A DNA stretch of 64,000 nucleotides from positions 347,385 through 411,384 of the forward strand of contig NMRA01000133.1 in the NCBI GenBank assembly GCA_002633005.1. Reading direction: 5' to 3'. Position numbers and translations under genes: made by a program. The DNA is from Phoronis australis (lineage: Eukaryota > Animalia > Phoronida). Under the pieces are notes generated by a model that was not told where the DNA came from, searched no databases, and was given only the letters and a program-made list of their open reading frames with translations. This document shows, piece by piece, positions 18,401 to 55,907 of this stretch. How positions within the stretch are numbered: the stretch's first letter is position 1; every line of letters begins with the position of its first letter.

Positions 18401-21400
18401 TTGGGATGGACAATATTGTTTATTTCTAGAAATTGTGACAAGCTCCGATAGTGAATGAAATAATTATTTTTTCGAGTCCAAAATAGATAACTTTTACCAT
18501 ACGCCTGGGATGTTTTCTAGTGTTTGATACCTACAGGCTTGCCTTGATCAGGGGGGAGGGACATTTTATCTGCCTAGCAATAACACAACAGTCAGTTTCC
18601 CCAGGATTTAAAGTTATGGTAGTCTTTTAGCGCAAAAGGCCGGTTCATAATCATAGCACTTTAAACTCACAGAAATATTCTTAAGATAATGCTGCAAGAC
18701 TTTATCTTTGAATTCAGCGGAAATATTCACAAAACTATAAATCTTAATATATAATATAATATTTTCTGAAAGTAGAAACCCTGTAGAATTTGATTTTTGA
18801 CTGCTCATCTGCCATTAACTGGATCCGTGACCATGTCGTTAAGTAAAATTTAGCAAAAAACTTCAGGTGCATTGATTGCAAAAAGGATCCATAACGAGGC
18901 TAAATTTATTTTGATATAAATGGTCACGATGAAAGTTAAAAAATAAATGAACATCAAAGTAAACGGGTGGTGATGCTGACGTCATCGAAGTTATCGCAAG
19001 GTAACGCTCCACGCTAAGATTTTTTTCAATGAGACAATTTGAGAACCTTTACATGTGCTAAATGACATTAAACTTATTTTTAAATCTATCAGGTGATATT
19101 AGAGCAGCTATTAGTATGATAAAAGTGGCACCTGGCGATAACTTTGATTGCACCAAAGTTAAGCGTTCATACTGCACCGCAGCGTCGACGCTGCGCTATT
19201 AAATCCACCTGTTAACTGCGATGTTAACTGGCGCTGTTAACTGCGATCCAGGACTGGAGTTAAGCATTCATACTGACCGCAACACCCCAAACCATCGAGA
19301 CGTCGATCTTAGTATGAAAGGCCCTATTGTTTACCGAAAGCACCTCTAGTAGATTGATCTCAATGGCCAATAGCCTTAAAAGATACCATGGACACGCAAT
19401 CAACTAGAGTACACCATAAAAATTATTCAGACATGACCTGGAATTAACAGTCATTACGCCTGGGCAGAAGCCCACCTAGTCTTCCTTCCTAGTCTTCCCT
19501 CGTGACTGAGAATGAAGCGTAATGAACAGGAAAATTAGTGAGGTGGCTAAAGGCCCTTTCCCATATAGTTAACTTTGCTATTATCAAAGCTTTGATGTTA
19601 CTGTGGTTAACCGCGAAGTTAAGTGTTAGTGTTCACATCAACTTCGGAATTATAGTTCAGTGGAGTTATCGCAAGGTGGCGCCTTGCTGTTTTTTGACAG
19701 TGCTTGCCATTAAAAATGTCAAAGGCATTTCTTTTTCCCCAGATGGAAATTAGAACATTACTTCAAAAGGCAGCTAACAGTTGGGACGGTGATGAACTAG
19801 ATGACACATTAAAACATTTGACTCTTGCGCAAGCAGTAATTTTTTTAAAGTAAAGAATTCATCAACAAACACAAACTGTAACAGAATAATGGCAACATAA
19901 TTATTTGAACACAATATTAACAAATAGTGACTCCTGCCCATAGCTCCGATGGCATCGAAGTTAAGTGTTGCCATAGTAGTGAAGCGTCAACATTTCACTG
20001 TTAAATACACCTCTTTACTTCAGAGTTAACTTGTTTTGTGCTGTTAACTTTGATTCAAAACCATAGTCGAGTGTTCCCATTGATTGAAGCTTTGACAGCA
20101 CCGAAGCTTCGGAGGAAGTGGGAAAGCCCTTTAAGCCATTCCGCAATTAAGAATTTTGCATCCGTAACAGTCACTACTAGTCACTTTTGCTGTTAACAGA
20201 ATTAGCAGTTATGGTGGGGAGCAGCATTTTGTCGAATTACTTTTGTCTTGTAATGTAAATCGTTTATAATGACAAAGACAGCATCCACATTAATCAGTTA
20301 ATTACAAATAAGTAGTCATCGCCGTTATTAAGAAAAACAAAATTATATTACCAACTCCCAAGAAACCAGCCTGACAAAGGATTGATAAAACATTATCGTG
20401 GATTATAAGAGAGAGACGACAATAATTGTGCTAAAGCCACAAATTCCAGAAGGGAATAAAAGTTGAAAAGTCATCCTGCAGTCTACCCTTAGCAGACTAA
20501 CAGTATTAACAGAAATTATCATTTTTAATGTCAGTGCACAACCATGTTGGTGAGATGAACGCATAAACAGAGACAAATCACTCAAACAAAGTAAACATTA
20601 TTAGTCATCTCGTTGAACAAGCAGAGGAATTGTAAAATACACCTGCACAAAGGCTTGAAAAGGTAAGTCCTGCCATGAAAACAATGACTACAAAGAACTG
20701 TCTGAAATTTTGGAATCAATGAACTGAAAAGTCATGGATCTGCTTGAATAAAATGGTATCTGATGATTACTCAAACTACCATTATGAATGTGGTTTCACT
20801 GATGTGAAAACAATCACAGCATGATCCAGTGTGATTGAGTTTAACCGCAAACTATTATCCCAGATCCTCACTTTCATCATAGAGAGATTGTCCAAAGAGT
20901 AAATACTAAAAAAACAATTGGCAAATACCACAAAAACATTCCAATTACCCACCATTTTTTAAAGGAAGCTTTTGACAGCAATGACAAGCAGTTGAAAAGG
21001 GGACATGCATGGGAAGGGGACATGCATGGGGTACATCTGTCAAACATCGCATCATCTAANAAGTAAAATTTAGCAAAAAACTTCAGGTGCATTGATTGCA
21101 AAAAGGATCCATAACGAGGCTAAATTTATTTTGATATAAATGGTCACGATGAAAGTTAAAAAATACTGTTAGTTTCCTAAAGTATCGTTTTATTTTTGTT
21201 TAAAGCAACTTCTGTTTTCTCACAATAATGATAGAATCCTAATTTTGATGGAATGTCGTGCAAAAGTAGAATATTTTAAAAACTCCTAATAATGTTTTGT
21301 AGAACAGTACATAAACCATGATATATTATGAAGTTTTATATGAACTAATAAGTCATTTCTGACATACTATGATCCAGAGTTTGCCAAATCAGAAAGAAAA

Positions 21401-21520
21401 GCTTTCCACAAAGCAATTTAAAAAGTACGTATACTAAAAATTTTTGAGTTTACATTCACGGCAGTCCCAGTGATAACTTTTACTATCAGGGCCAATGGAA
21501 TGCCTAGGTTAAATTCATTA

Positions 21521-21990
21521 GGCCCTTTCATATTGACTTAACTCTGGTCTGAGTGGAGCGTCGACGTAAACAGCGCAGTTAACTGGACCGCTCATACTGG
21601 CTTCGGTAGTAAATGAACATCAAAGTAAACGGGTGGTGATGCTGACGTCATCGAAGTTATCGCAATGTAACGCTCCACGCTAAGATTTTTTTCAATGAGA
21701 CAATTTGAGAACCTTTACATGTGCTAAATGACATTAAACTTATTTCTAAATCTATCAGTAGTTATTAGAGCAGCTATTAGTATGATAAAAGTGGCACCTG
21801 GCGATAACTTTGATTGGACCAAAGTTAAGCGTTCATACTGCACCGCAGCGTCGACGCTGCGCTATTAAATCCACCTGTTAACTGCGATGTTAACTGGAGC
21901 TGTTAACTGCGATCCAGGACTGGAGTTAAGCATTCATACTGACCGCAACACCCCAAACCATCGAGACGTCGATCTTAGTATGAAAGGCCC
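21521..21990. mobile_element. PIF/Harbinger-like MITE (truncated counterpart at about 18945-19324)
   Basis: TIRs GGCCCTTTCATA / TATGAAAGGCCC with T/A-rich flanks. Confidence 0.6.
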
Positions 21991-22216
21991 TACTGTTTAC
22001 CGAAAGCACCTCTAGTAGATTGATCTCAATGGCCAATAGCCTTAAAAGATACCATGGACATGCAATCAACTAGAGTACACCATAAAAATTATTCAGACAT
22101 GACCTGGAATTAACAGTCATTACGCCTGGCAGAAGCCCACCTAGTCTTCCTTCCTAGTCTTCCCTCGTGACTGAGAATGAAGCGTAATGAACAGGAAAAT
22201 TAGTGAGGTGGCTAAA

Positions 22217-22871
22217 GGCCCTTTCCCATATATAGTTAACTTTGCTATTATCAAAGCTTTGATGTTACTGTGGTTAACCGCGAAGTTAAGTGTTAGTGTT
22301 CCCATCAACTTCGGAATTATAGTTCTGTGGAGTTATCGCAAGGTGGCGCCTTGCTGTTTTTTGACAGTGCTTGCCATTAAAAATGTCAAAGGCATTTCCT
22401 TTTCCCCAGATGGAAATTAGAACATTACTTCAAAAGGCAGCTAACAGTTGGGACGGTGATGATGAACTAGATGACACATTAAAACATTTGACTCTTGCGC
22501 AAGCTAACAGCTGATCCAAACAAAGGCAATATAGCGTGGTGGGAACTCGCTTTGCGTATACTGCACATTCAGTAATTTTTTTAATGTACAGAATTCATCA
22601 ACAAATACAAACTGAAAAAGAATGATTATAACAGCAACATAATTATTTGAACGCAATATTAACAAATAGTGACTCCTGCCAATATCTCCGATGGCATCGA
22701 AGTTAAGTGTTCCCATAGTACTGAAGCGTCAACATTTCACTGTTAAATACATCTCTTTACTTCAGAGTTAACTTGTTTTGTGCTGTTAACTTTGATTCAA
22801 GACCATAGTCGAGTGTTCCCATTGATTGAAGCTTTGACAGCACCGAAGCTTCGGAGGAAGTGGGAAAGCCC
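22217..22871. mobile_element. PIF/Harbinger-like MITE (counterpart at 19552-20129)
   Basis: TIRs GGCCCTTTCCCA / TGGGAAAGCCC with TAA/TTA flanks. Confidence 0.55.
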
Positions 22872-25800
22872 TTTAAGCCATTCCGCAATTAAGAATTTTG
22901 CATCCGCAACAGTCACTACTAGTCACTTTTGCTGTTAACAGAATTAGCAGTTATGGTGGGGAGCAGCATTTTGTCGAATTACTTTTGTCTTGTAATGTAA
23001 ATCCTTTATAATGACAAAGACAGCATCCACACTAATCAGTTAATTACAAATAAGTAGTCATCGCCGTTATTAAGAAAAACAAAATTATATTACCAACTCC
23101 CAAGAAACCAGCCTGACAAAGGATTGATAAAACATTATCGTGGATTATAAGAGAGAGACGACAATAATTGTGCTAAAGCCACAAATTCCAGAAGGGAATA
23201 AAAGTTGAAAAGTCATCCTGCAGTCTACCCTTAGCAGACTAACAGTATTAACAGAAATTATCATTTTTAATGTCAGTGCACAACCATGTTGGTGAGATGA
23301 ACGCATAAACAGAGACAAATCACTCAAACAAAGTAAACATTATTAGTCATCTCGTTGAACAAGCAGAGGAATTGTAAAATACACCTGCACAAAGGCTTGA
23401 AAAGGTAAGTCCTGCCATGAAAACAATGACTACAAAGAACTGTCTGAAATTTTGGAATCAATGAACTGAAAAGTCATGGATCTGCTTGAATAAAATGGTA
23501 TCTGATGATTACTCAAACTACCATTATGAATGTGGTTTCACTGATGTGAAAACAATCACAGCATGATCCAGTGTGATTGAGTTTAACCGCAAACTATTAT
23601 CCCAGATCCTCACTTTCATCATAGAGAGATTGTCCAAAGAGTAAATACTAAAAAAACAATTGGCAAATACCACAAAAACATTCCAATTACCCACCATTTT
23701 TTAAAGGAAGCTTTTGACAGCAATGACAAGCAGTTGAAAAGGGGACATGCATGGGAAGGGGACATGCATGGGGTACATCTGTCAAACATCGCATCATCTA
23801 ATCTAATTCCATCTTCATAAACAGGGAGACATGGCGACTTTAAGAGGATAGATTATTATACAAGGTCAGCTGCCCTGAGTAAGAAGAATCCATCCGTTGT
23901 TTCTTTGATATTAAGAGTCAACTGCAGTATTTTTACCCAATTAGAATGCCATGCCTTTCAAAAGAAATTTTGAGATTCCTAAACACCAAAAACGCCCATT
24001 ACCTGTAGGTTCCATATTTAGTGTTTTGCGGACATGTTTGCAACAACTATATACAACATTAACTTTCCTACTGGAAGATGGCAGGCAGTATCAAGACTAT
24101 AGTCGACAATCAGTCATAACTGAACTTGTATCCCTTTCCCACTGCTTTTAGTCTGTTACGTGAGACGTTGAAATAAACTGCAAAGTTAACAGCGATGTTT
24201 CCAATGATGTCAGTCTTTAACCCACGAGGAATTTCATGACTAGTGGTGCCATGATCAACGAAATTAACACAAGGTAGCGTCGCTATCTCAAATTTTAAAA
24301 AAGTTCCAAGTATTGCACAAATTTTTAAACATGAAGGGTCAAAGAAATATTCAGATACTAACAGAAATGAAATGTTTATAGTATTGGAATTGTAAATGTT
24401 TCAACAAAATGCTTATAAATTTTTACCCACTTTTAAATCCATATGTCTACTAGAATTGTGATTTTAACTTCAGTCTCAAAGAGCTCTTTAAATATTGATA
24501 CATCAAAGTTCACAGAAAATGTCTCAGTAAAATTGTATTAACTGAATGATAGCTTCTTGAACTCCACATTAAGTTAAAAAGTACAGTTGAGAGCTGAAAA
24601 CGCCAGCAGTCTTCCACTGGCAAAAATGATAAGCCGTGCTGTAATTTCCGCCGGAAGATATCCTTGTTTTCTCACCACTCGTAAACAACGAATTGATATT
24701 AAAGCATGTTTATTCTGGTGATATAATCTTGTTAACACAACGATAACAATGGCTCTCATTCTCAACACAAGTATCCTTAGAAAAGAGCAGTGAAAAGTCC
24801 TTAGGAAAAAAGCATCCGTTGCTGCCAGCATAGCATCAGCCAAGTGATCCTTACAACTGTTAAGACCATTTGCGCATTCTCTGCTAGTGAAATTGTTGGA
24901 GAAAACACAAGTGTTTTAGCAATATCTGAATTGAACATGAATGTTTTTCATAAGTTTACACATGTCACCATTCTAACAGTCAAACTGTGAAGTATAGTTG
25001 TTCAAATAGATTGCAAGCCAATAAAAATATGAGAAACTGTTGAGCAGTTTCCCATAGTTAAGACATACCATCTGACACCGAAATGTCATTGCTACCCATA
25101 TGTTTCTTAAGTTGCTTTCTCATTAAAGTTACTTCCAGGACTAGTTCATGGTCGAAAGATGTTCTAGATTAATGTGATAACCTACAATTATCACAATTAT
25201 CACCTTTCCTGTATTAAACACCAGATGTCGCTACGCTGGATTGCTTACTTGCTCCAAATACCGGTACTAATCAGGGCACTGGTCGAATACAGTTGTCCCT
25301 GATTTTAGCTGAACTAGGCATTCGCTGAATAACGGGGGACCATTATTCAGTGGAGGAAACTGATTCTCAAAATAAAAAGGTTCCTGAAGTATACAGCGGC
25401 CGTTGCACCGATGTGGGTAAAAACTGATCAAATAAAATGTGATACAAAATTAGTGTCATAAAAAATTACACTCTTCCTTAAGTAAACTTATTATTGATTG
25501 GTGTTGAAAAAATTGGCATTTTGCCGTTCACTCTGCTGGTAAAATTTGGGTGCGCTCTTTAAGGTTGGCTTTCGGTGCCGTCACCTGTTGCCTTATTGGC
25601 CAGTTTTGTTCCCTGAGTTGTTCTTCTCCCGAGTGATCGAACTGTTCTCAGAAGTTGTGTACATGTCACAACAAATTACTAGAACTGAATTCATTTCCTT
25701 ACAAGTTTTTAGTATTTTAATACCAGGAAATCGAATTTCATAAAAAATTTTGCTCCTGCAAAGCTGTCATCATTTCCTGACAGATGTCGCAAAATTTTAA

Positions 25801-28800: not shown

Positions 28801-30115
28801 CCTTGAACAAAATCATTATTTTTTCACAGTAAAAACGGGACAATTTTTGCTGCAGTCTGTGAATCACTCGTTACCGAGCCAAGAAAAGACAAATGCGCCC
28901 TACTTGTCCATAACCGTGGAATTTCAATATCCAAAATGAAAAGGGCTCATTAAGATATAGCCATTGTATTAATAAGTACTCAGCAATCGTGGTATGATTG
29001 TTACACAACTGCCAAAAGTCAGAGTGCGATGACATCTGGTGGCAAGGAGATGTTGCAGAGCGGAACAAGTCTTCAAAATGTAAGGGTCTTGCAAAAACAC
29101 AAGATTTTTAAACTTATTTGCTGATTTTTGCCCCAAGGCAGAAATCAAAACCTGCACAATCATGTATGCAGTTAGCATTTGACAATACGGCCGATGATCA
29201 TATATTTTCTAGTTATTGCTTTTCAAAACGAACTGTAATATTACGTGTACACTGGCAGACCTAGGATGTCAGGCCCTTATCTCAACCTTTTTAGAACATA
29301 CCTCAAACACAATATATTTTTATAAAGGAAATAAAGTTTTCTTTACACACGTAATAATATACCTATCGTAAGTCACGTGATGTTCTCATTGTCACTACAG
29401 CATGAGATACTTGTCCATCACTAGCTACCCTGGGATTGGCTGCTGCCTGACCCTCGTTTGGGATCATTCACTGATCAATCAATGTTCGCCAATCGAAGAT
29501 CGGGCAGCAGCCAATCATAGACAAGCTGAGTGTCATGCAGTGGAGAGATTGAGACCCTCGTAAGACTTCAACAGATATAATTATGGCTAGATAGAAAGCA
29601 GTGAAAGTCTCTTTATTACATAAATAAAGTGTATGACAGGTATGTTCTAAAAAGACCAAACTCACGTGGTCAGTAACGCCAACCTTACTTTTAGAATAAA
29701 AGAGGTAGTATAAGGCCAGAGAACAGCATGCCTATAGGTTACGTTTCATTTGGTTGTGCCCATAGGAAGAAACCAGGCACCATAAATCTCATCAATGGGA
29801 CGTGGCCTTGCACAATGCATAAAATAAAAGCTTCTGAAAAACTACTGGAGCCCACAATCAGGTGACAAAGCACTCACACAGTTGGCCGAAAATTACTTTT
29901 TGTACAGTAGATGGCACTGGTCAGATGTAGCGGTACCTGATTTAGAGAACCAGTTTCCTCCACTGAATAATGTATTAATGGACCCACTGATGTATTATTC
30001 ACTTCAGTAATTGCCTGGTTCACTAAATCTGACCAGTACCCAATAGATCCTCTGGGCCACAATACTAAACCAAAGTCGTTAACACTCCATTTCAAGAAGA
30101 TTTAAGCTTACGTAC

Positions 30116-30432
30116 ATCTGCGTGCCTGCTTCACTCTCTGAGCTGCTGCTTGAACTCTCATCTTCTTCATCTCTGTGCTCTCGTTCTTCGTCAGAGTCAT
30201 CACTCAGGCTATCTTCACCCCCACGTAATACTCCAGAGTTCAACAAGGTGACGGACACGGATCTGGGTTCCGTATCACTATCCAGTCCGCTCAGATCTCC
30301 TAACGATTCTGGAATACTCGGTGTGGATGCCGCTGGTGAAGTCGATCGGCATTCGTCCGTTTCCAAATGGCCATTTGAGTCGAACATAAGTTCCTGCTCG
30401 TCCGAAGACGAATAAATGTTTGTTTGGCTCAT
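30116..30432 (-). CDS. Acidic Ser/Asp/Glu-rich first coding exon, probably the N-terminus of the otopetrin gene
   Basis: ATG at 30432 starts MSQTNIYSSSDEQELMFD...EEDESSSSSSESEAGTQ in sequence more GC-rich than its surroundings. Donor GTACGT at 30115 gives phase 2, matching the phase-2 acceptor at 4180. An alternative donor GTAAGC at 30111 is phase 0. Linkage to OTOP is inference. Confidence 0.6.
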
Positions 30433-30539
30433 ATCAAACTTATGATTTCCAGAAGAAGGTAAAACTAAAACGCACCGGTACGGAATCCATCCCTGGTCCC
30501 CAGCTAAACGCACATCACGTTCACTAACAACTACCGCAC

Positions 30540-30915
30540 CTGTCGCTTTTGTGAAGTTTGTGTTGAATGTGCTCGGGTAATAGCTCAGCTACTTAAAAAT
30601 CTAAGACAGGAAATATTGTACGAGTCATTGTCCAGTAAATAGTTGGTTACGTTCAAAATATGACTAATATTTAGAAATTACGTCACTTCTCTCTACACTA
30701 TTCCTTATCAAAGCACTTTTGGTTTAGTTGAAAAAAGTTTCGGATTGTCTCCCCTTCCCCTTTTCTAAAAGTGAAAACACGGAAGTAACGTGGGTCACAT
30801 GATTTTAGACTCCGCCATGAAAGATAAGTTGTGCTGTTAACAAGCTGGTAAACCGCTGTCATTCACTTATATTTGAGTCATACTTGCGGCAGCCGTACAT
30901 ATTTGTAGGTAAGAC
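30540..30915. promoter_or_regulatory. Putative bidirectional promoter and Rab9 5' non-coding exon
   Basis: Lies between the minus-strand ATG exon and Rab9. Contains TTACGTCA (CRE-like), CGGAAGT (ETS), GGTCACATGA (E-box), CCGCCAT (YY1-like) and a strong plus-strand donor AG/GTAAGA at 30909. Rab9 coding exon 1 has an acceptor at 37978 and so needs an upstream exon. Confidence 0.5.
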
Positions 30916-31008: not shown

Positions 31009-32024
31009 CACAGGCGTCCTCAGCTTCTGATCGTCCCCAATACACTACATATAATACTACAAGGTATGGCACTCCCTACTAGAAATTCCGGTTTGTCGCG
31101 TAAAGTCACGATATCGATAACTCTACACTTAGCCGCCAGTAGAAAAACTATTGAGTACTTCTGTAACTCACCCGCAATTTCCGGACCGTCCTTGACCTCG
31201 AGCGGCCCACAATGAAAGTGTGTGGGGGCTTTTTGTGAACATTTTTGTTCTTTGACTGCGAATTTCTTATGAAGTCGCCGGAACAGGACACCGTGAATGG
31301 TATTGGGAGAAAGAACAATTCTTCATGGTTTGTTGAACCTCTTGTTGTAGATGTGCTTCCAGTGAATTATATGGGCCTCTGTTAGCTAATCGTTAACAGG
31401 CAATTGCCTATTAGCTGAATGGTTAGCACGCTTGCCGGTTTTATGGGGGTCGCGGGTTCGATACCCAGGTCGGGTAATCTCGGCTATTACTACAAATGGC
31501 GTAGTCGGCAAACGGATGATCTACCGATGAAGCACCGCCAACTAGTACCCACGGACCTCGGGACGGCGCGTGTGGAAGGTTCCAGGAGTCAAGGACCTGT
31601 ATGAGAGACTACCTTGTGTTCACCTGTGTTGTGGTGGTAAAGGTACCAAGAGATGTTGATGACCTGTATGCGAGACATCCTGGTGTTCACCTCCTTGGTC
31701 GCGTGCCTGTTCCGTAGGGAAGGGGGGAATGTTGTAGATGTGCTTCCGGTGAAATATATGAGCCTCTGTAGCTACTCGCTAACGGGCAATTGCCTATTAG
31801 TTGAGTGGTTAGCACGCTTGCCGGTTTTATGGGGGTCACAGGTTCGATCCCCGGGTGGGGTAATCTTGGCTATTACTACACTCTGTTTTGTGTAAATTTA
31901 TTGAGTTTTATATTTGCTATGGACGGCTGAAGTGAAGCACCCGTGGAATTTCTAGTCGGGAGTGTCATACCTTGTAGTATTATATGTAGTGTATTGGGGA
32001 CGATCAGAAGCTGAGGACGCCTGT
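31009..32024. mobile_element. Non-autonomous TIR DNA element (CACAGGCGTCC family, 8-bp TSD), host of the TRIM insertion
   Basis: Long TIRs CACAGGCGTCCTCAGCTTCTGATCGTCCCCAATACACTAC..., flanked by AAAAAATC on both sides. Confidence 0.8.
31343..31880 (+). mobile_element. Miniature non-autonomous LTR retrotransposon (TRIM) with tRNA-derived LTRs (Helenus-like)
   Basis: LTRs 31343-31494 and 31730-31880 (TGTTGTAG...ACTACA, about 90% identical), PBS TGGCGTAGTCGGCA at 31497, PPT AGGGAAGGGGGGAA at 31716-31729, 4-bp TSD CTCT on both sides, A/B boxes within each LTR. Confidence 0.9.
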
Positions 32025-32064
32025 AAAAAAATCCACCAGGCGGTACCCACAGCCACAGCACAGG

Positions 32065-32780
32065 CACAGGCGTCCTCGGCTTCTGATCGTCCCCAATACA
32101 CTATATACAATACAACAAAATATGACACTCCGGACCAGAAATTCCACGGATACTTCACTTCAGTCGTCCATATCAAACACAAAACTCAATAAATTTACAC
32201 AAAACAAGGTTTCAACACACCAGGCATTAGCAATTGTTTTTTCTTTTAATATCATTCACAGTGTCCTGCTCCAGCGAGATCACAACAAATTTGCGGTCAA
32301 AGCACAAAAATGTTCCCAAAACGCCCACGCATTGAGCCTCCTTGGACAGTTCGAGAACGAGGACGGTATGGCCATTGCCGATTTGTCACGGACTGTCACG
32401 ACATCGATAACTCCACATTAGCCAGACCATTTTGTAACCTTCCGTGAGAAGCTGTCCATCTGTTACTCATTGGATAATTCCGTACTGCCCCTGACCGCGA
32501 ACCGTCCAAGGAGGCTCGATGCGTGGGCTTTTTGGGAACATTTTTGTGCTTTGACCACGAATTTGTTGTGATCTGGCTGGAGCAAGATACCGTGAATGGT
32601 GTTAGAAGAAAGAGCATTTACTAATGGTTTGTTGAAACCTTGTCTTGTGTAAATTTATTGAGTTTTATGTTTGATATGGACGGCTGAAGTGAAGTACCCA
32701 GGGAATTTCTGGTCGGGAGTGTCATACCTTGTAGTATTACATAGGGTATTGGGGACGATCAGAAGCTGAGGAGGCCTGTG
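32065..32780. mobile_element. Second CACAGGCGTCC-family fold-back element, without the TRIM
   Basis: Same TIR at 32065 and its inverse ending at 32780; internally largely palindromic. It shows the empty TRIM-equivalent site near 32631-32657. Confidence 0.8.
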
Positions 32781-32986: not shown

Positions 32987-33154
32987 TGACTGGACGTCTA
33001 AATACAGCTTGCAAAGGATGTGGATAAAAATTTCCCAATGTAGGCGAAGTGTGCTTTTTCGTTTTGCTAAAACTCTGGTCCTTTCGCAACGAAACGTATA
33101 TATCAAAATCTAGCACTTCTAAGCCTACGTATTAAAGTTTTTGCTACTATTCAG

Positions 33155-33297
33155 TTGATACATGCTTACGGTGAATCCTATGAGCCTCTGTTAACTTCTT
33201 GCTAACAGGCGATTGCCTATTAGGTGAATGGTTTGCACTCTTATCCAGTTTTATAAGGTTTGTAGTTCAATTCCTGGGTCAGGTGACCTCGGCAATT
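33155..33297 (+). mobile_element. Diverged solo LTR of the tRNA-LTR TRIM family
   Basis: ATGCTTACGGTGAATCCTATGAGCCTCTGTTAAC...GCTAACAGGCGATTGCCTATTAGGTGAATGGTTTGCAC...GTTCAATTCC aligns with the LTR at 31343-31494. Confidence 0.7.
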
Positions 33298-36200
33298 GAC
33301 CTATCGCAAGCTCCACCCCTTTGGAGTTGCTACAAGACCTATGTTGTCCATTTGGTAAATGCCATTTTCTTACATCACTCTCCTGCTTTTGTAAAAAAGA
33401 AAAGCTATAAATCGATTTTAAAACTTGCGCCATTTGTGGTTTGGTAAAGTGACATCTTTTGGGGGTTGATTGTAACTTCACCTTAACAAAATTTCCTCAG
33501 AATTTTGGTTCATTGGAAATAAAGTATTCAAAGCGACGAACCAAGTTCAACCACGTCTTGTCACTTAATTAACTTTTATGAACTGTGTGCAATCTTGTGA
33601 AAAGAACAGTGGATTAAAGACTTGGCGAAAACAGAAATTAACCAACAGATGGCGCTTAATTTCATGGTGCTGAAATTTGATGCAAATGATCACTCCACAA
33701 ATGTAACTGCAGAATAATGAACTAACAACATTTTTTCATGTTGTTAACCAAGCTAATTTGTAGTCAAGGAACTGTAGTTTTTAATAGCTTTGTGCGAGAT
33801 TTCTCGTTTGCTCATATTTCATCCAGATTGTTCCAAACATGTATGTTTATACAACGTTGCACCAAGAAGAAATTTTCACGCAATTAAGACAGGCTTTATA
33901 CAACTGTGTAGCATATGGAAGCAGGAATTCATAAAAACAGACCACCACTTATGTAATACTTAGGATTTTACTTTCCGCTACTTTGCTGTGGTTTGGCAAG
34001 AATTTAGTTAATGAATAAAGGTTTAATTGTTGTTCCAAGCTCATCATACGATTTTGTCGCAAGGTCATGTGTAGTTGCCTTTGCATTACATTCAATATTG
34101 AGTTACCAATATTTGAACTGTGGCGTGTGAGTTGAATGTCCTGCCTGCTCGGCCAAACAGCAAGTGCTCGCTAACGTATGATTTAACGAGGCCTTTATTC
34201 ATCTGTTCATCATACTCGGAACCAGAAATTCACAGCGCTTTTTTCAGTCGTGCTAAACAGTGAGGGGTTGCGTAAAATATACCTGCACTGAGACGTTAAC
34301 CCGGAATCTTCTGAGTATGAGGCAAGAGTGCAAACCAATTGGCCAAGTGGAAATTACCTGGTGAGGGGCTTTGTAACAATACTCATACTTAAATCCGTTA
34401 TCTTGTGCATGTGTGTCAAGCATCCAAACCAATCAGCTAAGAGGCAATTGCTTATTGGCGAGCGAGCGATGAGGCTTTACAACAAGAGTAAGCTGCTATG
34501 TGTCCTGGGAATAAGTACCATTTGAGCATAAATTGAGGGACATCTGAGGAGACAACTGCTTTTTTAAATCCTAATTGGAACACATGTTCCCAATAATTAA
34601 GTTGTCTTTCTGATGTCAGTTTATTTGCCAGCAAAATTGTGAACTAGACATTTTTGATGCGGTTGCATCACTGCACATATTTCCATGACCTCTGACCTCT
34701 GACCTCTGGTCAGGATCACAAGTGCACTAAACTTTTCCCTTAGGATCACTACTATCATACCTAGCGCCACCTGGACTACAAAATGGCAATGTCAACGATT
34801 TCGATAGTGAATGAAATGACAGGAATATTTTTGGGGGTTCAAAAGACTTAAAGACATCAATGGCATCAAAAAGTGTCTATCTGTGGTCAAACGTTCTTTT
34901 AACAAAATGGGTGTAGTGATTTAGTCAGTGTGAAGCATGGTTTGCTGTAATTCATCTGTCGTCTAGAGTACCAGTCACTTGTAAACTGTCTGAGCCAGCT
35001 CAGATGGTAGCATTGTCTATTGTGGTGCCTGGTATCAGATTGCAGCAACGCTCTTGGCATCCTGACATTTCCTTTCAGCAACACTGGGCATGTTATGGAA
35101 TTTGCCTTCAGTAACACTGGTGTTATGCTCGTATGTCCGCCAGTTTGATGCTACTTTGTTGGGAGTCGCATGGCTCCCATCCATCTCTCGAAGTCTTGTG
35201 TACATCTCAGGGTGGTGGTCTCATTTTAGTTTGGGCGCTGTTGTGAAAGTCTTCTTGTCCACAGGTTGAAGCTAGACCACCGTCGTGTAAAAGGAGCGTC
35301 CAAAACAATCAGCCAAAGAGCAGTTGCTCACTAAGGAGTGATTTATTTTACTATGTCACACCCAGAATGCAAAAATCACAACACAAGTAGTTTTCCCTTG
35401 ACTATGCCACCAATAATGTATTTTGATATGTGAAGAGTGTAGAAAGATCTGTTAATTTGGGACACATTATGGTTGATAGGTGAAATCATGTGTTATTTTT
35501 TTGTTAATGGCACATAGTACCAAAATGAAGCTCTGTAGCATAGATACCAACAGACACTATTTGATTTTTGTCTTGATTGACATGTACACCTTGCCTGTGA
35601 TTTGACTACTTGTGTTGCCAACTCTTTTGATAACAATTCAGATCAGGTGAGCTTGGTAATGTTTTTAAACCCCAAAGCGTTTGTGTTAAAAATTCAACAT
35701 TGATAGCTAAATGGGGAAATTGAGCTTTAATGTTGATTTAGAGTTAATATAAGTTGCCTTGACATGGTGAGTCATTTCATGTGTCAAGAATGGTTTCAAG
35801 GGACACTTAACTGTCAGTTCCTCTCAAGTCCAGAAATACTTCTCATGTGAGCGAGAAATATGTTTAGATCAGTGTTGATATTAGGTGATTTTAATCAAAA
35901 GTTACTATTTGACGGAAGGCAGGTTAACATTTGATTTATGCACAGGTACTTGCTTTACTTTGGAAATGCATACCTTATATTACTGCAATTAAGTTACCTC
36001 AGTTTTGCTATTTCTCTCCACAACTGTGTGTGCATGGTCGTTAATATAATGATTTGTTTGTATTCATTCTACCATTTTAATTTAGTACTGACAAGTCTCT
36101 AAATAATTTTTATCTTGTAATACATTGTTCAAATGCCCCAGCAGCCTTTTGACATGCAGTGTGTATTGCTGAAAGCAAATTCTGCTCAACTGGTTTAGTT

Positions 36201-38011: not shown

Positions 38012-40339
38012 ATGTCGGTGAAAACGAAACTGTTGAAAGTTGTCCTTCTGGGCGATGGAGGCGTGGGAAAGAGCTCGTTGATGAATAGGTTCGTCAGCAA
38101 CAAGTTCGACGCGCAGTCATTCCACACGATTGGAGTCGAGTTTCTCACCAAGGATATTATTGTAGACAACCAAGAATATACACTGCAGGTGGGCTGGTGG
38201 ATAATTAATGTAAATTGTTATCCATAAAATACAAATCCCAAGTTATTATCATTCAGGTCATAACACAAGGTGAGGCGTAATTGTAACAACTTTAGGCACC
38301 TGTTGGCCCGAGTTATGCAATCGCTGAGCGTCAATAAAAAATTCTTTTGCATCGATGACATGAAGCATGTTCATATAGTTGTCCCTCTTCACGTCGGCCA
38401 GTGTGTTGAAACACTGTACTGTGGCTCTTACATAACTGTAGATTTGTGTTCGTAACGACGATACTGGTTGAGGGTGTGCTGTTTTGACAATTCCCAGGAC
38501 AGTTGAGTCGAACTTTTTATGGATTTGTGGTTTCTAAATGCGTTTGCACAATAAATGTTTTCATCATCATAATCACTTTGTTTCTAATGGTTTCCATGTC
38601 ACTTTCTTCTCAAAATATTGAATGTGTTCATAATAAGTAAACCTTATCTTACAAATCTTGCGATCTCCTATAAGGCTCTTTGAGTGAAGGAGATTGAAAA
38701 GCTCTACCCTGGCGTATCTATGTGGAATAGTTCTGCTTTATTCTTGTTGTGTTTCATGTTATCTGCTTGGTATATTTTTGGCTCGACTGTATTAGCAAGT
38801 GGTTAAACTCTTCTGTGTGTATGGACATAATGTTGTACATTATTGCTAACAAAAATAACTCTTGAAACATTGGAATAGATCACACAGACTTGAAATGTTG
38901 AGGCTGTGACAAAACATAGTCTTCTTAAGCATGTAGACATGAAACGCATTTAATTCAGGAAGTCTAATCTCAAGAAGTTATTTTAGATCTCTAGTTCCGC
39001 ATAAGACACATTTTCCGTTGGTATTGATCAGTTGTTGCTGTTTGAGTAGCTGGCAAGAAAATTCGTTTAATAAAAATAGGGCTGTCCCATATTACACACA
39101 GCGATAGAGCTCTCCTTTTTCCAGAGATAAGGAAGTGCGTGACCTCGTTTCGGAAATCAGACACATTTTCGTGTCTCTCATTGATGTCGGTAAGATAAAG
39201 AATTTCAGGTCACGCATCCATGAGTATTTGTCGAGTTTATCAAACTTCCTCACGTCGGAGTTGCAGTCCATGCCACAGTGGTAATACTTCGTCGACATTG
39301 GAAGGACGAATAGTGTAATGCAACCGAGAATAACTTGTAAAGAATGAGACAACAACAAATAACGTTAAACTCCAGTGCTACAATAACGAGGCAGTAAATG
39401 CGCCTGATGGATGTTTACTACACTGTGGGTAAATACTGCGAGATTCGAGTGTCGCTCTTGTAATCCGGAAGAGTCCTATTCTAATTTTACACTGTTCATT
39501 GGTTGGAGTTCACCAATACACTGTTCATTGGTTGGAGTTCACCAACTGCTTATGACTTGATTTGTCTCCTCCAACTTGATTTATTGTTTGTTAAAGGTAA
39601 TGCGCTTTAGACCTGACCTAGGTAGAGAAGCATGCAGTGTTCAAAATACATGGTGGCCTGGGGCCAGTGGATTTGCGGCGGATCCAGTGGATGTGGTCTC
39701 ATATTCAAGTAACTGGCAGGCCGGACCAGCTGAAGCTTGAACACTGGATGTATGGGGCTGTAAAGTTGCAGACAAAAATTTGGTCGTCAGTAAAGGTTTT
39801 GGTCAGATGACAGTGGCCCTAAACTTGGAAGTTTATTGAAATCAAGGTAGCATGTTTTTATTGACAAATTATTTGACGGTATATGTGATCTGTTTCAGGT
39901 ATGGGATACTGCGGGGCAGGAAAGGTTCAAAAGCCTACGAACACCATTCTATAGAGGGGCCGACTGTTGCCTGTTGACATTTGGAGTGGACGACTTACAA
40001 AGTTTTCACAATGTAGGAATGTGGATCAAAGAGTTTTTGTATTATGCGGACGTGCAGGACACAGACAATTTTCCGTTTGTGGTCATAGGCAACAAAATCG
40101 ACATTGAAAATCGAGCCGTGCAGAAAGTACAGGCAGAGGAGTGGTGTCGGCTCAATGGAGGTTTCCCGTATTACGAAACAAGTGCTAAAGACTCCACGAA
40201 TGTCGACTTGGCGTTCACCGAGGCAGTAAAGCGATTAGTCGAGCTCGAGGAAAAGATGGATCAAAAGGAGAAAGGTCAAGGGAGTGCGGTCGATCTCCGA
40301 CGGGCAAGGGGCAATAAGTCATCATCGTGTTGCACTTGA
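38012..40339 (+). CDS. RAB9: Ras-related small GTPase Rab9, about 205 aa, two coding exons
   Basis: Exons 38012-38188 and 39899-40339, GT-AG, phase 0. Motifs LLKVVLLGDGGVGKSSLMNRFV, FHTIGVEF, WDTAGQERFKSLRTPFYRG, GNKID, ETSAKD and a C-terminal CC prenylation motif (SSCCT). Confidence 0.95.
39078..39477 (-). mobile_element. Non-autonomous DNA element with THAP-domain remnant (ISL2EU/PHIS-like)
   Basis: Imperfect TIRs AGGGCTGTCC / GGAAGAGTCCT flanked by AT. Remnant MSTKYYHCGMDCNSD...FFILP resembles a THAP N-terminus; a second copy lies at 49996-50354. Confidence 0.6.
39488..39545. repeat. 29-bp tandem duplication
   Basis: TACACTGTTCATTGGTTGGAGTTCACCAA x2. Confidence 0.85.
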
Positions 40340-43745: not shown

Positions 43746-46700
43746 CTAACGATATCCACCCAACAAAATTGGCTTGGCCTTTTCCAAAATATCCAGCTCA
43801 GGATCCAGAGATCGTCCGAGTCCCTCCAGAACCATGATGGCAAGTATTATGGAGACAAAGTTACTTTGCATCTTCACTTTATGTGCCATCAGCAGGTGGA
43901 ATACTTTACTAAGGAGTTCACCCACTTGAAACTGAAAACGGCAAAAAGAAATATAAATGTTTTAAATCATAACATAATCATTATCCATAATAACCACATC
44001 TGATTCAGTAATTTGCCAACTACAGTCACAGTGTTAACACAAATGGCCACGTTTTTGAAACATGTCTGTTTGTCATGGTGCACAATTATAAATTACCTTT
44101 TGCTAAATACCAATTTCAATTCAAAATAATATTAATATCAGTTATGTCCAAATTGATACAGAGGTCTACAAACATCTGGATCACAATAGTAATGAGGGTA
44201 TCTTGGAGAAAAAATGTACTGTTGTAGATAAACCAATACAAAATGTAGTTGTAGATCAACCAATGCAAAATTGTACAAAGACCACACAAAATATTCATTT
44301 TCGCCAAAATAGTGATAAGCAGAAAAACTCTTTGTTTTTAAGATAACGCATATGCTAACTAAACAGCATCTGTCAATAAAATGTGAATGGAGGGGAGAGA
44401 ATGAGGGGGGGTGGGAGGGAGGGGGTGTGTGGATAGGGTAAGGGGAGTGAACATGGCAAGGGGGTGGGGGTGGAGGGAAGGAGGGAGAGAGGAAGGGAGT
44501 GTTGGCTACTTACCTTTCCAAGCATAAGTGACTCTTTTCTTGCTTCGTTCACAAGGTCTGCCATTTGACCTTTGAACTTGTCAATGTCTGCACACTCATT
44601 GTATTCACTGTGCTTCAACATCAGCTCAGCTACTGTGGCACCCTGACAATTAAGAAAGGTGCATTTTGCAGCTGACATCAACTATGAGTTTCAGCAAATG
44701 ACACTTTTCACATTCTCAAACTATCAGTCTAAATGAAGCATGAAAAAGTCGAAGAGAGAGCAAATCAAATATCATTCAAAAGGGCCACATCATATCTCGC
44801 GCAACAGGTACGCTCAACTCCACCAAAGGTGTCACTTGATAATCTAGTTGTAGTATAATATCTCTTAAAACAAATCAAGATTTGTGATGCAGTCTTTAAA
44901 TGAATAGCATATTGACGCCTTTAAACAAGCAATAACTTGTGGTAAGGCCCTCATTATAAATGCTAAACGGTTAAATTTTCAAAACTACTGTTAAAGACTT
45001 ACATCACCACAAACGACTGCAGTGAAGACTTTCTTAAAATTTCGCCTGTCCTCTTCCTCCAGCACGGTTGCTATGCCGACATCAAGAAAAACGAGCCGTA
45101 AAGGGCACTCTACTGGCTTTACATTCACAATGAGCGTGTCCAAGAGATCAACAACATTCAGCTTCACTTCCTCCTGAAAAATCAGACGTCACGTGACTTT
45201 TTGCAGGATAGCTCGAGAGGAAGACTATTTGGACTTCCAGGAATTCAAAACAACAATTTCTACAGACATCCCAATTTAATCTTGGAAAAGGTAAGATTGC
45301 AAGCACAACAAACCGATGTAATGCCGGAAATGCCAATGCTCTCATACAGACTAAATGCCAGTTACCAAGCCAATATGAATTGAAGATGTAAGTACCTGAA
45401 AACACACCATGCTGCCAAATTTGTCGAGGACTGATAAGTAAACCGGTAGTTTCTGAACAGCAGTAATTCCTAAAATAATCGAGCACACAATATGGCCGGA
45501 ATGTGAAGTTCTATTTAGTCAAATTTCTCCACAATAACAATCGAGAAAATTCAGTTCTATCTTTTGCATGGTTGGTATATGTTATAAAGCAAAAGTTGAG
45601 AATGCTGCATTCTGATTGGTCAGTTAAGCCGTCACTCAAAATCCTCGTGAAAGGTCAATTTATAGCAGTCACCTGTGGGCTGAACTGATCCACGTTCTGC
45701 ACCATGATGTTACCAGGGTGAAGGTCGCCATGGACTAAGTTATCAACAAACACCTGCAAACATTAATTATAAGTAAATAAATAACTATTCAAGAAGGAAT
45801 TCATATCGTTCATTTGCAAGCTTTCTTCGGTGACACTGGTTTGACTTAACATGCCTGACCAATCACACGATTCACAGGCACCTTTTATGAATTATGGCCT
45901 TCACAAGTTTTGAAATAGCTAACATACATAAAGTTGCATTTTGTGCTAGACTTTTTGATCTCTCAAAAAAGGAATGGCCCAAAGGAGGTCTTCACAAGTA
46001 ATTAGCTCTGTTATTAGAAGAAGAATTTGTAATACACCAGAGGCCTGTTCCTAAAAGCAAAATAATTAGAACAGAAAGGTAGCAGTGAAATCATGTGCTT
46101 TGCATGACGATATCACCCAAAGTCTTATGCAATCTCTTTGCTACTGAAGCCAAAATTTAACACAGAGAATTAAATATAACAAATGACGATTTCAGCAAGT
46201 AGTTCATTATGAAGCCGAAGACAGTTTACCACATACAACGGGGACGTCACATGCAACGGGGACGTCACATGCAACGGGGACGTCACATGCAACAGGGACG
46301 TCACATGCAACAGGGACGTCACATGCACCGGGGACGTCACATGCAACAGGGATGTCACATTCCAAACAAAACTTCAACTTCATTTACACTTCAGTTAAAG
46401 TTATTACTAAAAGTCTTTCATTGCAAAAAAAACAATTTATAATAAAAAACCACCATTTTCCTAAACATAATGGGAGGTGTTACAGAACTTCAAAAGAAAG
46501 GACATTGCTGGTGACCAGGCCCTATGAGTTGGCTTGTCACAGTGTGACAATGTATGTGCCAAGCATAGTCTCAACTGCCAATCCTTTGCAAAGCCAGAAA
46601 TCATTTCCCATTTGAGTATGAAACAAAGTGAGACCACTTTTGTCGCAGGAAATGGTCTAAATCAAAATACATTTGCCTAGACAGCATGCTGGTTAACATC

Positions 46701-49700
46701 TGTTTTAAGCAGAGTTAGTGCAATGATACCGTCATTCCAGAGACATCATAACGGCGACCTACCATCTTCAGAAGTGCGTCAATTCCAATGTTGGCCAGTT
46801 TACTACGGACGGCGACAACGTTCTCGACCTCAGTGTCCTCTCTCAAGAATGTAGAAATGGGCGTGGCCTCCTGAACAGAGAACTAACACTTGTAATGCCT
46901 TATAACATAACTAGGCCACGGGTCTAAATATTTTATTTGAAATCAAAAACTGTTCTTCGCATCTTCTATTCTTCTTTTGTGCTTACTAAGGGTGAGTGTC
47001 TGATATTCTATGATCAAGTACGCGATGACTTACATGAATAACTGTCTAATCTCAATGTGCACTTGATGACCCAAGTCTGAACTCGAAGTCTCAAGTTTTT
47101 ACTCAAGTTTGTAGCTCAAATGTAGAGGTCATCAAGTGCAAACATGGACTAGAAACTCATATGCATAAACCATTAATGTTCGTAAGCAGACTAATGAGCC
47201 GATTCATTTGACTTGCCTCCTCCACTAAAAAGAACAACATCTATGCATCAATAACCTTAACAGCTTGAATTATTTTTGCAATAACAGACACTTGTTTTGC
47301 ATAAGATGTGACGGACAAGTGAAATTTTATTTTGTCAAATTTTTCTTCAAAAGCTTAAAAATCACAAGAAAACTTTAGTTGATCATTAGCTTGGCAACTT
47401 TGTACTGCATGGATCTCATAAAACAGCATTTGTTAATTAGCATTTGTTAATTAGCCTTTGGTAATTAGCCTTTGGTAATTAGCATTTTGTAAAGATCTCA
47501 TTATTTGTAAGCAGCCTTTGAAAAATGACAATTTTAGCAAAAGAGAATTCCCGTACCTCCCATGTCTCCACCAGCACGTCTCTACGGATGTAAGGCCATA
47601 TAGGGCGAGGAAACTTGACAAAGGGAACGTTGTCAAAGTTGCTCGCAAACTTCTCGAGTTGAGCAGCCTCTTGTCTCAGATCCAACTACAAAGTAAAGGA
47701 ACGTGTTGAGGTATGCAGTACCCTACAAAAATGGAAAAATTTGGCTAACTTCGGAACATCATATCTCAGAAATGGTTGATTGGATTCAGAATAAACTTTC
47801 AGATATTATAGTTTATGCACTGCTCTCCAAAGTAATGTTGGGAATTGTTTATTGAATGTGCACGAGGGGCTATCAAAAATAATAATTTTAATAATTTTTA
47901 TGAAAGAAGTCTTAAGTTGCATGAAACGAAAAAATGAGATAATTTAGAAAAATTGTAACAGCTTTTTGAGACCTTATCTTGAACATTTCTTACGTCAAAT
48001 AAAAATTTGTCACGTTATTGATACTGTTGTTTTGCCATCAGCGGAACTTTCCTTTTCATTACATTTGACAAGAAAGACATTTTCAGAATATACATACTAA
48101 AACTAAGTTAAAATCTATAGTTTCGTAGATATTTGGCGAAATACACTGGTCAATAAGATCCTACATTGTACATAACCTTAAGTGAAAATTGACACAAGAA
48201 GTTAGATCTTAAACCGTTTCCCATTACTTAAGCAAAAATGTGTTTTTGAATTAAAAATCTGAATATCAACGAACAATAGTTTTTAAAAAGTTGATGAATT
48301 ACGTTGAAATTCATCTGCCTTCGTCAACGTTATTCGAAAAACTCTGAAGGAAAACCGACAAAAAATGACACTAAATCGTTTGAAAATCAGCCAAAAATTT
48401 ATGCACGTCACCTTGATTTCTCGAATTTTCGACTAGAAGAAATAACATCAACCCTTTTTTCGAAAACCACTGCCTTTAAGTACCTGTCCAAGCATAATGT
48501 GAGAGAACTCCTCTATACAGTCAGTGACACTCAGCCACCTCAAGCTGGGTACAGCAAACTCAATGATCCAGGCTACAGCCATGAGTAGACGCAGATCACG
48601 TGTCACAGTGGAATAAATACCAGGATGTAGTACCTGCGGAATATATGGGCAACGTGGACTTCAGTAAACAAGGAAAAGCACACAAAACATCAACCTATAA
48701 TCATTGACAAACTTGGCAAAAACTGAGTGGCTTCTCTAGGGTGAATCCTGTGTTCTTGTTTGATGTTTATTACAAAAAAATCAGTTTAATAATAATAAGA
48801 GTTAAGCCCAGACAGCACTACAAGGCAATATATCTGTGTTATTACTTATTGAATTAATTTTTTTTAAAAATTTGCCTGATCATTTTAAATGCAATGTACT
48901 TGACTTTGCACACAAGTACAAACTCTGAGCATTTTCTTAATTTCCAAGCAACCCAACATCAGCTTTGTGGCTATGCATGAATATAAAGAAAACGATACAA
49001 TTATCAACTTGTCCAGGAGAAAAAAAGTGTGGGCAACACGTCTCTACCAATTCCTCCGATAAGAGAATCCCTCAGGATATGATATCAATTTTGCATGATT
49101 TCGCTATCAGTACTAGTGGATGTAAATCCCAAAGCACTTCACTTCTTCACTTGACAAAAGTGCCATCGACACACAGACTTACCCATAAGTTAATCCTTAA
49201 ATGAATTGTCACTACGTTTAAGCGTTATCTATTTAAACTAGTGCAACTTGCCCCACTTGTGACAACTTACTCCACCAGAATCAAGGTGGAAGCACCACCT
49301 GCGTGGCTGTAAACCTGGGTCAAGGTGGACGTAATTATCAGCTGCGCTTACATACAGATAGGTCTTCTTTAGAGCTACGCATGAGCTGTTCATTGTCATG
49401 CAAAGAGCGACAACTTCCGCTTTACCCTAGTTATCAAATATATGAGTCTGTACGCTCCACTTAAAAGTGGGGTTAGTTACAATAGTGCAAGTTGTTCTAG
49501 GGTAGGCTGTGTGTGGACGAGACTTACTAGTACAAGTTGTTCTAAGGTAGGCCGTGTGCGGACGGGACTTACTAGCGCAAGTTGTTCTAGGGTAGGCTGT
49601 GTGTGGACGAGACTTACTAGTGCAAGTTGTTCTAAGGTAGGCTGTGTGTGGACGAGACTTACTAGTGCAAGTTGTTCTAAGGTAGGCTGTGTGAAGACGA

Positions 49701-55894: not shown

Positions 55895-55907
55895 GCTACA
55901 GGCAGCC

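What the first reader, a model, noticed from the sequence alone, without database searches (positions are those of the whole stretch)
31343..31880. Complete miniature LTR retrotransposon whose LTRs contain a tRNA-like Pol III cassette
Seen in sequence: two ~151-bp TG...CA direct repeats (about 14 substitutions and 1 indel), each with an A box (TAGCTGAATGG, 31412) and B box (GGTTCGATACC, 31455) in a tRNA-like context. A PBS TGGCGTAGTCGGCA lies 2 nt after LTR1, a PPT abuts LTR2, the 4-bp TSD is CTCT, and the 235-bp interior is non-coding with its own ~32-bp direct repeat (about 31594 and 31661). Established knowledge: the PBS is complementary to the 3' end of eukaryotic tRNA-Ser, 4-bp TSDs are typical of many Gypsy-type integrases, and plant Cassandra TRIMs use 5S-derived LTRs in the same way. 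From memory, tRNA-LTR TRIMs have been named Helenus, so the class may be known while this family is new. Inference: a SINE/LTR hybrid transcribed by Pol III and mobilised in trans by an autonomous LTR element.
Basis: partly seen in the sequence, partly recalled or inferred. Interest (0 to 1): 0.85.

Follow-up and report, generated by a model that had tools for sequence, protein, structure and literature searches.

The report
Helenus mini-retrotransposon with palindromic LTR hairpin
This is a real, somewhat aged copy of a tiny gene-less jumping element with a tRNA look-alike in each end repeat, a new family of the Helenus type described in 2024 and likely copied by RNA polymerase III, and it shares with fish, coelacanth, bivalve and ribbon-worm relatives a self-complementary hairpin that may pair two of its RNAs for packaging.

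Summary
Observation confirmed: LTRs 31343-31494 and 31730-31880 (14 substitutions, 1 indel), A and B boxes, tRNA-Ser primer site, purine tract and CTCT duplication. The element sits inside a 475-bp inverted-repeat DNA element whose other copies lack exactly 542 bp (538 + 4). Reads show a multicopy family and suggest two more 4-bp duplications. The tRNA covariance model does not hit the LTR; a sequence-only tRNA profile does, so it is a promoter relic, not a tRNA. It is a new family of Helenus (Kojima 2024), with a primer site absent from that paper's data, in an unplaced invertebrate. The scan has found Helenus-type elements before on other DNA. Pol III transcription and the Gypsy helper are inferred, not shown. 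New point: the LTR carries an inverted copy of the tRNA D-arm just upstream of it, with a palindrome at the apex. By eye, 54 of 76 published non-wasp animal Helenus LTRs have this module, 32 with a perfect palindrome of 14 different sequences; the paper does not mention it. This suggests one shared animal lineage and possibly an RNA dimerisation signal.

The parts
31339..31342 (+). left target-site duplication CTCT
   Evidence: empty sites shorter by 542 = 538 + 4
31343..31494 (+). 5' LTR, 152 bp, TG...CA
31379..31401 (+). U3 end: imperfect inverted copy of the tRNA-like D-arm (left arm of a long hairpin)
   Evidence: folds; z -2.2 to -3.4 against shuffles
31398..31409 (.). perfect 12-bp palindrome (10 bp in LTR2, 31785-31794) centred on the predicted Pol III start
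   Evidence: start position inferred from A-box register
31405..31476 (+). tRNA-derived cassette with broken acceptor stem; A box 31412-31422, B box 31455-31465
   Evidence: no Rfam tRNA hit
31439..31442 (+). T4 run in the anticodon loop; with 31825-31828 the only run of 4 or more T on the + strand inside the element
31497..31510 (+). primer-binding site, 14 nt complementary to the 3' end of tRNA-Ser
31495..31729 (+). 235-bp non-coding interior with a 32-bp direct repeat at 31594-31625 and 31661-31692
31716..31729 (+). polypurine tract abutting the 3' LTR
31730..31880 (+). 3' LTR, 151 bp; A box 31798, B box 31841
31881..31884 (+). right target-site duplication CTCT
31009..32025 (.). host element: non-autonomous inverted-repeat DNA element (475 bp without the insertion, 80-bp arms 98% alike, 8-bp duplication) into which the retroelement inserted
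33152..33305 (+). degenerate lone LTR of the same or a sister family, 76% identical over 136 bp, ends eroded, no duplication recognised
34290..34465 (-). more distant relic: hairpin/palindrome module and tRNA-like sequence, apparently interrupted or rearranged

Best explanation
This is a complete but aged copy of a multicopy, non-coding miniature LTR retrotransposon of the Helenus type, likely transcribed by RNA polymerase III from the tRNA-derived A and B boxes in its 5' LTR and likely copied and inserted by the proteins of an autonomous Gypsy-type element. Shown: paired LTRs, tRNA-Ser primer site, purine tract, exact 4-bp duplication, many other copies, tRNA-derived boxes without a tRNA fold, and an inverted copy of the D-arm in U3 with a palindrome at its apex. 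Inferred: Pol III would start near 31403-31405, read through the weak T4 of the 5' LTR and stop at or beyond the T4 of the 3' LTR, giving an RNA of about 425 nt with about 38 nt repeated at both ends; tRNA-Ser would prime the minus strand and the purine tract the plus strand. Because the start lies at the centre of the palindrome, the long hairpin could form only at the RNA's 3' end, where it may strengthen termination and expose a self-complementary apex for RNA-RNA pairing.
For: Anatomy. PBS equals the tRNA-Ser antisense sequence for 14 nt. Empty paralogous sites in the window and joints skipping 542 bases in 8, 7 and 1 contigs of X1, X2, X5 and 35, 25, 29 reads of X8-X10. 28 and 30 contigs of X1 and X2 leave at 31494 into unlike flanks. 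Loose ends pair up as two further 4-bp duplications. A 16-mer of LTR1 lies in a tRNA gene in 84 of 120 viral loci; a profile of 237 other tRNAs hits both halves of both LTRs in register, 0 of 1000 shuffles reaching either LTR's best score. Helenus definition and 4-bp duplication in animals. Hairpin -27.0 kcal/mol in the 3' context against -4.2 for the predicted 5' end; hairpins under 20 nt upstream enhance termination at U4 in human cells.
Against: No Rfam tRNA match; ARAGORN finds LTR2 only at a lowered threshold and LTR1 not in register. RNA-seq reads fall on both strands, carry host flanks at the LTR borders and show no start inside the LTR, and only 14 of 1520, 11 of 1324 and 21 of 1235 reads are 99% alike to this stretch: no support for Pol III transcription of this copy. 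A T4 only 35 nt after the predicted start is a problem unless read through. The published zebrafish LTR has no T4 at all, so the termination idea is not general. No autonomous partner was found or searchable. LTR divergence 0.10: this copy is not recent.
Confidence: 0.85

Rival explanations
1. An ordinary Pol II-driven TRIM whose LTR once captured a tRNA-derived SINE head that is now a passenger.
For: No Pol III start seen; family RNA appears as read-through from host transcripts. No tRNA fold. A T4 early in the predicted transcript. Kojima also had no experimental proof of Pol III use.
Against: Both boxes and their 43-nt spacing are kept in both LTRs and in Helenus families across phyla; the cassette and its inverted copy fill most of a 151-bp LTR.
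Confidence: 0.11
2. Two tRNA-derived SINE copies (or a local duplication) that only mimic LTRs.
For: LTR-like relics without recognisable ends lie nearby; LTR reads outnumber interior reads in RNA.
Against: TG...CA ends, primer site 2 nt after LTR1, purine tract abutting LTR2, one 4-bp duplication around the whole 538 bp and empty sites shorter by exactly 542 bp; no A-rich tail.
Confidence: 0.02
3. The U3 hairpin and palindrome are a neutral by-product: an old fold-back duplication at the transcript start, kept symmetrical by template-switch correction of quasi-palindromes, with no role in dimerisation or termination.
For: 88 perfect palindromes of 10 bp or more occur in the 64 kb, so one palindrome is not rare; 22 of 76 published LTRs lack the module and 22 of 54 have an imperfect apex (hand count). 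Correction of quasi-palindromes is recalled, not tested.
Against: The module persists from coelacanth and fishes to bivalves, ribbon worms and this host, and its loop tetramer takes 10 of the 16 possible palindromic values although a hairpin loop need not be self-complementary (hand count).
Confidence: 0.3

Closest known systems
Helenus TRIMs (TRIMp3), Kojima 2024, PMC10886601; read parts 1-4 and 6 of 6 of the text, word searches, and parts 1, 5, 6, 7, 9, 10, 11 of 11 of the supplement
   Same: Under 1 kb, two TG...CA LTRs with tRNA-derived A and B boxes, primer site, purine tract, no coding capacity, 4-bp duplication as in animal families; size and layout closest to bivalve and nemertean families (for example Helenus-2_MyGa: LTR 144, interior 226, a tRNA-Ser primer); the same U3 hairpin module by eye.
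   Different: None of six short motifs tried (five from this element, including its primer site) occurs in the supplement; published tRNA-Ser sites are of other isoacceptors. Host is an unplaced invertebrate that falls outside the sampled molluscs in a one-gene tree. Its only T4 is in the anticodon loop, not after the tRNA part as in many bivalve families.
Cassandra (plant TRIM with 5S-derived LTR; described in PMC10886601 and PMC7215508 passages; the 2008 paper was not available)
   Same: Small-RNA-derived Pol III promoter in both LTRs; transcript starts in the 5' LTR and ends in the 3' LTR with a short terminal repeat (18 nt there, about 38 nt predicted here).
   Different: tRNA-type not 5S-type promoter; animal host; Pol III transcription shown for Cassandra, not here.
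Ajax (nemertean TRIM with 5S-derived LTR, PMC10886601)
   Same: By eye both Ajax LTRs carry a similar hairpin with a palindrome-like apex followed by an A-box-like stretch.
   Different: Ajax has 5S internal control elements and 5-bp duplications; no 5S match here.
Palindromic dimerisation signals of retroviruses and Ty1 (PMC4974528, passages)
   Same: Self-complementary sequence in a genomic RNA that must be packaged, proposed to pair two RNAs.
   Different: Those lie near the 5' end; here the complete hairpin would exist only at the 3' end; dimerisation is untested.

Membership tests
Helenus | TRIM shorter than 1000 bp with two LTRs | tested here: met
   538 bp, LTRs 152 and 151 bp, 90% identical
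Helenus | tRNA-derived sequence in the LTR with box A (TRGCY...YGG) and box B (GGTTC) | tested here: met
   boxes at 31412/31455 and 31798/31841; tRNA profile and 16-mer tests; LTR2 box A departs by one base; Rfam covariance model negative
Helenus | primer-binding site complementary to a tRNA | tested here: met
   14 of 14 nt with human tRNA-Ser antisense oligonucleotide; the host's own tRNA-Ser was not available
Helenus | polypurine tract before the 3' LTR | tested here: met
   14 purines at 31716-31729
Helenus | 4-bp target-site duplication in animal families | tested here: met
   CTCT; empty sites shorter by 542 bp; two more duplications inferred from loose ends
Helenus | no protein-coding capacity | tested here: met
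   longest stop-to-stop frame overlapping the element is 84 aa; frames not scanned against Pfam
Helenus | interspersed multicopy family | tested here: met
   28 and 30 contigs leave the LTR end into unlike flanks; variant contigs across LTR and interior; copy number not measured
TRIMp3 (Pol III-driven TRIM) | transcription by RNA polymerase III from the LTR | tested here: inconclusive
   three RNA-seq runs show no internal start; library type unspecified
animal Helenus | mobilised by an autonomous Gypsy element sharing the primer site | not testable with these tools
   no genome held; one viral-contig match to LTR end plus primer site shows no LTR-like sequence beside it
Cassandra / Ajax | 5S rRNA-derived sequence in the LTR | tested here: not met
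   no 5S match at E<=10
functional tRNA gene | cloverleaf with paired acceptor stem scoring above threshold | tested here: not met
retrozyme | self-cleaving ribozyme in the LTR | tested here: not met
   no Rfam ribozyme match; no hammerhead or twister core pattern on either strand

The most novel reading that the evidence does not exclude
Most animal Helenus elements (coelacanth, sturgeon, carp-like fishes, bivalves, ribbon worms, this host, and probably Ajax) are one lineage defined by an inverted copy of the tRNA D-arm centred on the Pol III start. The hairpin exists only at the 3' end of the RNA, and its freely covarying palindromic apex is a kissing-loop dimerisation signal that lets a 0.4-kb parasite RNA be packaged by Gypsy particles; in this family it also makes one weak T4 a terminator in the 3' LTR but not the 5' LTR.
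Probability: 0.3. Interest if true: 0.65.

Novelty: new member of a known kind. Interest (0 to 1): 0.4.

Why it matters
As a new family of a class described in 2024 it adds a host lineage and a primer type, and it is a source of false tRNA-like annotations. The shared U3 hairpin matters more: it argues against separate origins of fish and mollusc Helenus, and it offers short, testable cis-signals for two open questions, namely how TRIMs without LTR homology to their helper get packaged, and how a Pol III transcript can end in the second of two identical LTRs.

Tried and rejected
No whole genome is held, so no genome-wide census or helper search. Metagenome scans: LTR end plus primer site 0 matches; primer site alone 118 loci, none with LTR similarity, chance matches. 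Viral-contig scans: tRNA-Ser-like 20-mer 0; palindrome 16-mer 3 loci with no extension beyond 23 nt; LTR end plus primer site 1 locus without LTR-like flank. Rfam: no tRNA, 5S or ribozyme match in the element; the only gathering-level hit in the window is an unrelated tRNA-like gene at 60033. No RNA holder was listed by the run index. A module-like match at 19546-19569 has no tRNA-like sequence behind it and is taken as chance. The 33152 relic got no score from the tRNA profile when scored alone (the script stopped there). Host placement: ADCK2 exon search gave nothing at E<=1e-30, best representatives 39-48% identical and mostly unnamed; Rab9 tree leaves the host unplaced. biv-TRIM (PMC6934838, passages) lacks a canonical primer site and was rejected as a relative. 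Earlier scan notes had no look-alike of this sequence and none on a palindrome or dimer signal.

Full report
Observation. The sequence at 31343-31880 is as described. LTR1 (31343-31494, 152 bp) and LTR2 (31730-31880, 151 bp) begin TG and end CA and differ by 14 substitutions (10 transitions) and one indel; CTCT flanks both ends; the interior is 235 bp. A boxes start at 31412 and 31798 and B boxes at 31455 and 31841, 43 nt apart; the B-box pattern matches 3 places in the window on both strands and only these 2 have the A-box pattern upstream (the patterns are recalled). The primer site (31497-31510) is identical to the first 14 nt of an antisense oligonucleotide for human tRNA-Ser printed in PMC3299991 (one passage read). 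A 14-purine tract abuts LTR2. The interior holds a 32-bp direct repeat, 88% alike. The longest stop-to-stop frame overlapping the element is 84 aa. LTR divergence is 0.10 by Kimura's two-parameter distance, so this copy is not recent.

It is a true insertion. The element lies inside a non-autonomous DNA element (31009-32025, 475 bp without the insertion, 80-bp inverted arms, 8-bp duplication). Two related copies of that host repeat in the window are uninterrupted at the same site. In public DNA contigs, joints from 31338 to 31881 skip 542 bases, that is 538 plus 4, in 8, 7, 1 and 0 contigs of X1, X2, X5 and X6, and in 35, 25 and 29 reads of X8, X9, X10. These may be paralogues or an empty allele; they cannot be told apart here.

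It is a multicopy family. 28 contigs of X1 and 30 of X2 (one sample) run on past the LTR end at 31494 into unlike sequence (agreement 0.39 and 0.38), and variant contigs cover LTR and interior. I give no copy number, since summed depth is not one. In RNA reads the commonest loose ends pair up as further 4-bp duplications: in X8 and X9 a flank before the LTR ends GAAG and a flank behind 31492 reads AA then GAAG; in X10 a flank before ends GCCC and a flank behind 31494 begins GCCC. The pairing is my inference from consensus ends, not from single molecules. A second organism label (X6, one study) has 23 laid records including LTR and interior pieces.

The LTR is tRNA-derived but is not a tRNA. 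At threshold 85 ARAGORN calls LTR2 a possible pseudogene and does not call LTR1; 8 of 1000 shuffles of each LTR were called. A profile of 237 other tRNAs from those loci (239 unique genes of 70-80 nt lacking the 16-mer, 2 dropped for unknown letters) ranks the A-box and B-box halves of both LTRs third to sixth in the window, in register, each weak alone (E 0.09-0.6); 0 of 1000 shuffles reached the best score of either LTR. The acceptor stem is broken. This is what Kojima reports for Helenus: boxes kept, tRNA function unlikely.

Expression. Three RNA-seq runs of one study contain family reads on both strands, many with host flanks at the exact LTR borders, no start inside the LTR, and only 14 of 1520, 11 of 1324 and 21 of 1235 reads 99% alike to the stretch. 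This reads as read-through from host transcripts carrying LTRs and neither supports nor excludes Pol III transcription.

Host. The window holds Rab9 and ADCK2 exons. In a tree of 45 Rab9 rows (the window, 24 named and 20 unnamed rows picked from the hits; 146 columns) the window's row lies outside the supported mollusc group (99/94) and joins no named group. One gene and a long branch make this weak; an earlier scan note on this genome says likely mollusc. I call the host an unplaced invertebrate.

Comparison with what is known. Helenus (PMC10886601) is defined as a TRIM under 1 kb with tRNA-derived LTRs, primer site and purine tract, with 4-bp duplications in animals and primer sites resembling those of Gypsy elements; Pol III use was not shown. 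This element meets every structural criterion. None of six short terms, among them its primer site, occurs in the supplement, and the listed tRNA-Ser sites are of other types, so the family is new to that set; Repbase and Dfam could not be searched. Four paper searches found no later family survey; two citing papers only mention the class (passages). The scan itself lists 77 notes with these words in at least 17 genomes.

A feature not in the paper. U3 ends in an imperfect inverted copy of the tRNA-like D-arm: 31379-31401 pairs with 31406-31427, with a perfect 12-bp palindrome at 31398-31409 (10 bp in LTR2) whose centre falls at the predicted Pol III start. The core hairpin folds better than 200 of 200 shuffles (z -3.4); the longer stretches give z -2.2 and -2.5, and the 33152 relic -0.2. 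A degenerate pattern for the module matches 5 sites in the window (9 strand matches, 0.47 expected): both LTRs, both relics and one chance site; the pattern was built partly from these LTRs. A palindrome alone is common (88 of 10 bp or more in the window). What makes it notable is the published set. By eye, in the 76 non-wasp animal LTR consensus sequences shown have the same arrangement (arm, six-base apex, arm running into the A box) and 22 lack it; 32 of the 54 have a perfect palindromic hexamer, of 14 different sequences (such as CCATGG, CTGCAG, GTTAAC, AGTACT, AGATCT, ATCGAT), covering 10 of the 16 possible palindromic tetramers; this element's CAATTG is a fifteenth hexamer. The families are related, so these are not independent counts, and the tally is a hand count. 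Five motif strings of the module first occur in the animal part of the file; I did not read supplement parts 2-4 and 8. The paper's text has no occurrence of palindrome, hairpin or inverted, and proposes separate origins for fish and mollusc Helenus.

Mechanism. Inferred: TFIIIC binds the boxes of the 5' LTR and Pol III starts near 31403-31405. The only runs of four T on the + strand are in the anticodon loops (31439, 31825). Ending at the second would give about 425 nt with about 38 nt repeated, as Cassandra does with 18 nt. The predicted 5' end folds weakly (-4.2 kcal/mol) while the 3' context forms a -27.0 kcal/mol structure whose long stem closes 4-10 nt before the T4 (that fold also pairs the T run itself). 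In human cells a hairpin under 20 nt upstream enhances termination at U4 (abstract and section 7 of bioRxiv 10.1101/2020.09.11.294140). This could explain termination in the second LTR only, but the zebrafish LTR has the module and no T4, so it cannot be the general role. A loop that stays self-complementary while changing sequence points to pairing between two molecules; palindromes are proposed to dimerise Ty1 RNA and kissing loops retroviral RNA (passages of PMC4974528). The predicted self-duplex is -46.8 and -54.6 kcal/mol against -17.8 and -21.7 for the monomer, which any such hairpin would give and is no evidence by itself. tRNA-Ser priming, purine-tract priming and integration by a Gypsy-type integrase follow from established LTR biology and Kojima's argument; no helper was seen.

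Verdict. A confirmed new family of a known class, interest 0.4, raised above a plain new record by the shared, apparently unreported U3 hairpin, whose function is a hypothesis.

Noticed in passing
window 31009-32025, 32065-32780, 55816-55895: Three related copies or remnants of a non-autonomous inverted-repeat DNA element; the first has an 8-bp duplication (hAT-like by recall) and hosts the retroelement; the family is abundant in reads.
   Followed up: partly
window 60033-60106 (+): tRNA-Thr(GGT)-like sequence, Rfam 35.6 bits with mismatched stems; this anticodon is unusual in animals (recalled), so likely a SINE head or pseudogene; no LTR ends or duplication found.
   Followed up: partly
window 33152-33305 (+) and 34290-34465 (-): Two LTR-like relics carrying the same hairpin module within 3 kb of the element; the second seems to hold two D-arm-like starts about 110 bp apart.
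   Followed up: partly
window 30079-30588 (-): An acidic, serine-rich reading frame with an ATG near 30432; if it is a first exon, the element lies about 0.9 kb upstream of a gene start.
   Followed up: no
window 39851-40339 (+) and 44373-52086 (-); proteins P0008/P0030 and P0069/P0219: Rab9 and ADCK2 lie tail to tail; unnamed relatives of both come from contigs of the same two lengths, suggesting the neighbourhood is conserved elsewhere.
   Followed up: no
window 18841-23801: Tandem near-identical duplication of about 2.1 kb (98%), possibly a recent duplication or an assembly artefact.
   Followed up: no
PMC10886601 supplement, Ajax-1_NGe and Ajax-1_LiLo LTRs: By eye both Ajax LTRs have the Helenus-type hairpin module and a tRNA-type A-box-like stretch ahead of the 5S-derived part, suggesting Ajax derives from the same lineage.
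   Followed up: no
PMC10886601 supplement, Helenus-2_SyJa and Helenus-2_SyUm LTRs: By eye these wasp LTRs contain a hammerhead-ribozyme-like core downstream of the tRNA part; other wasp families have a different hairpin ending in a four-base palindrome just before the A box.
   Followed up: no
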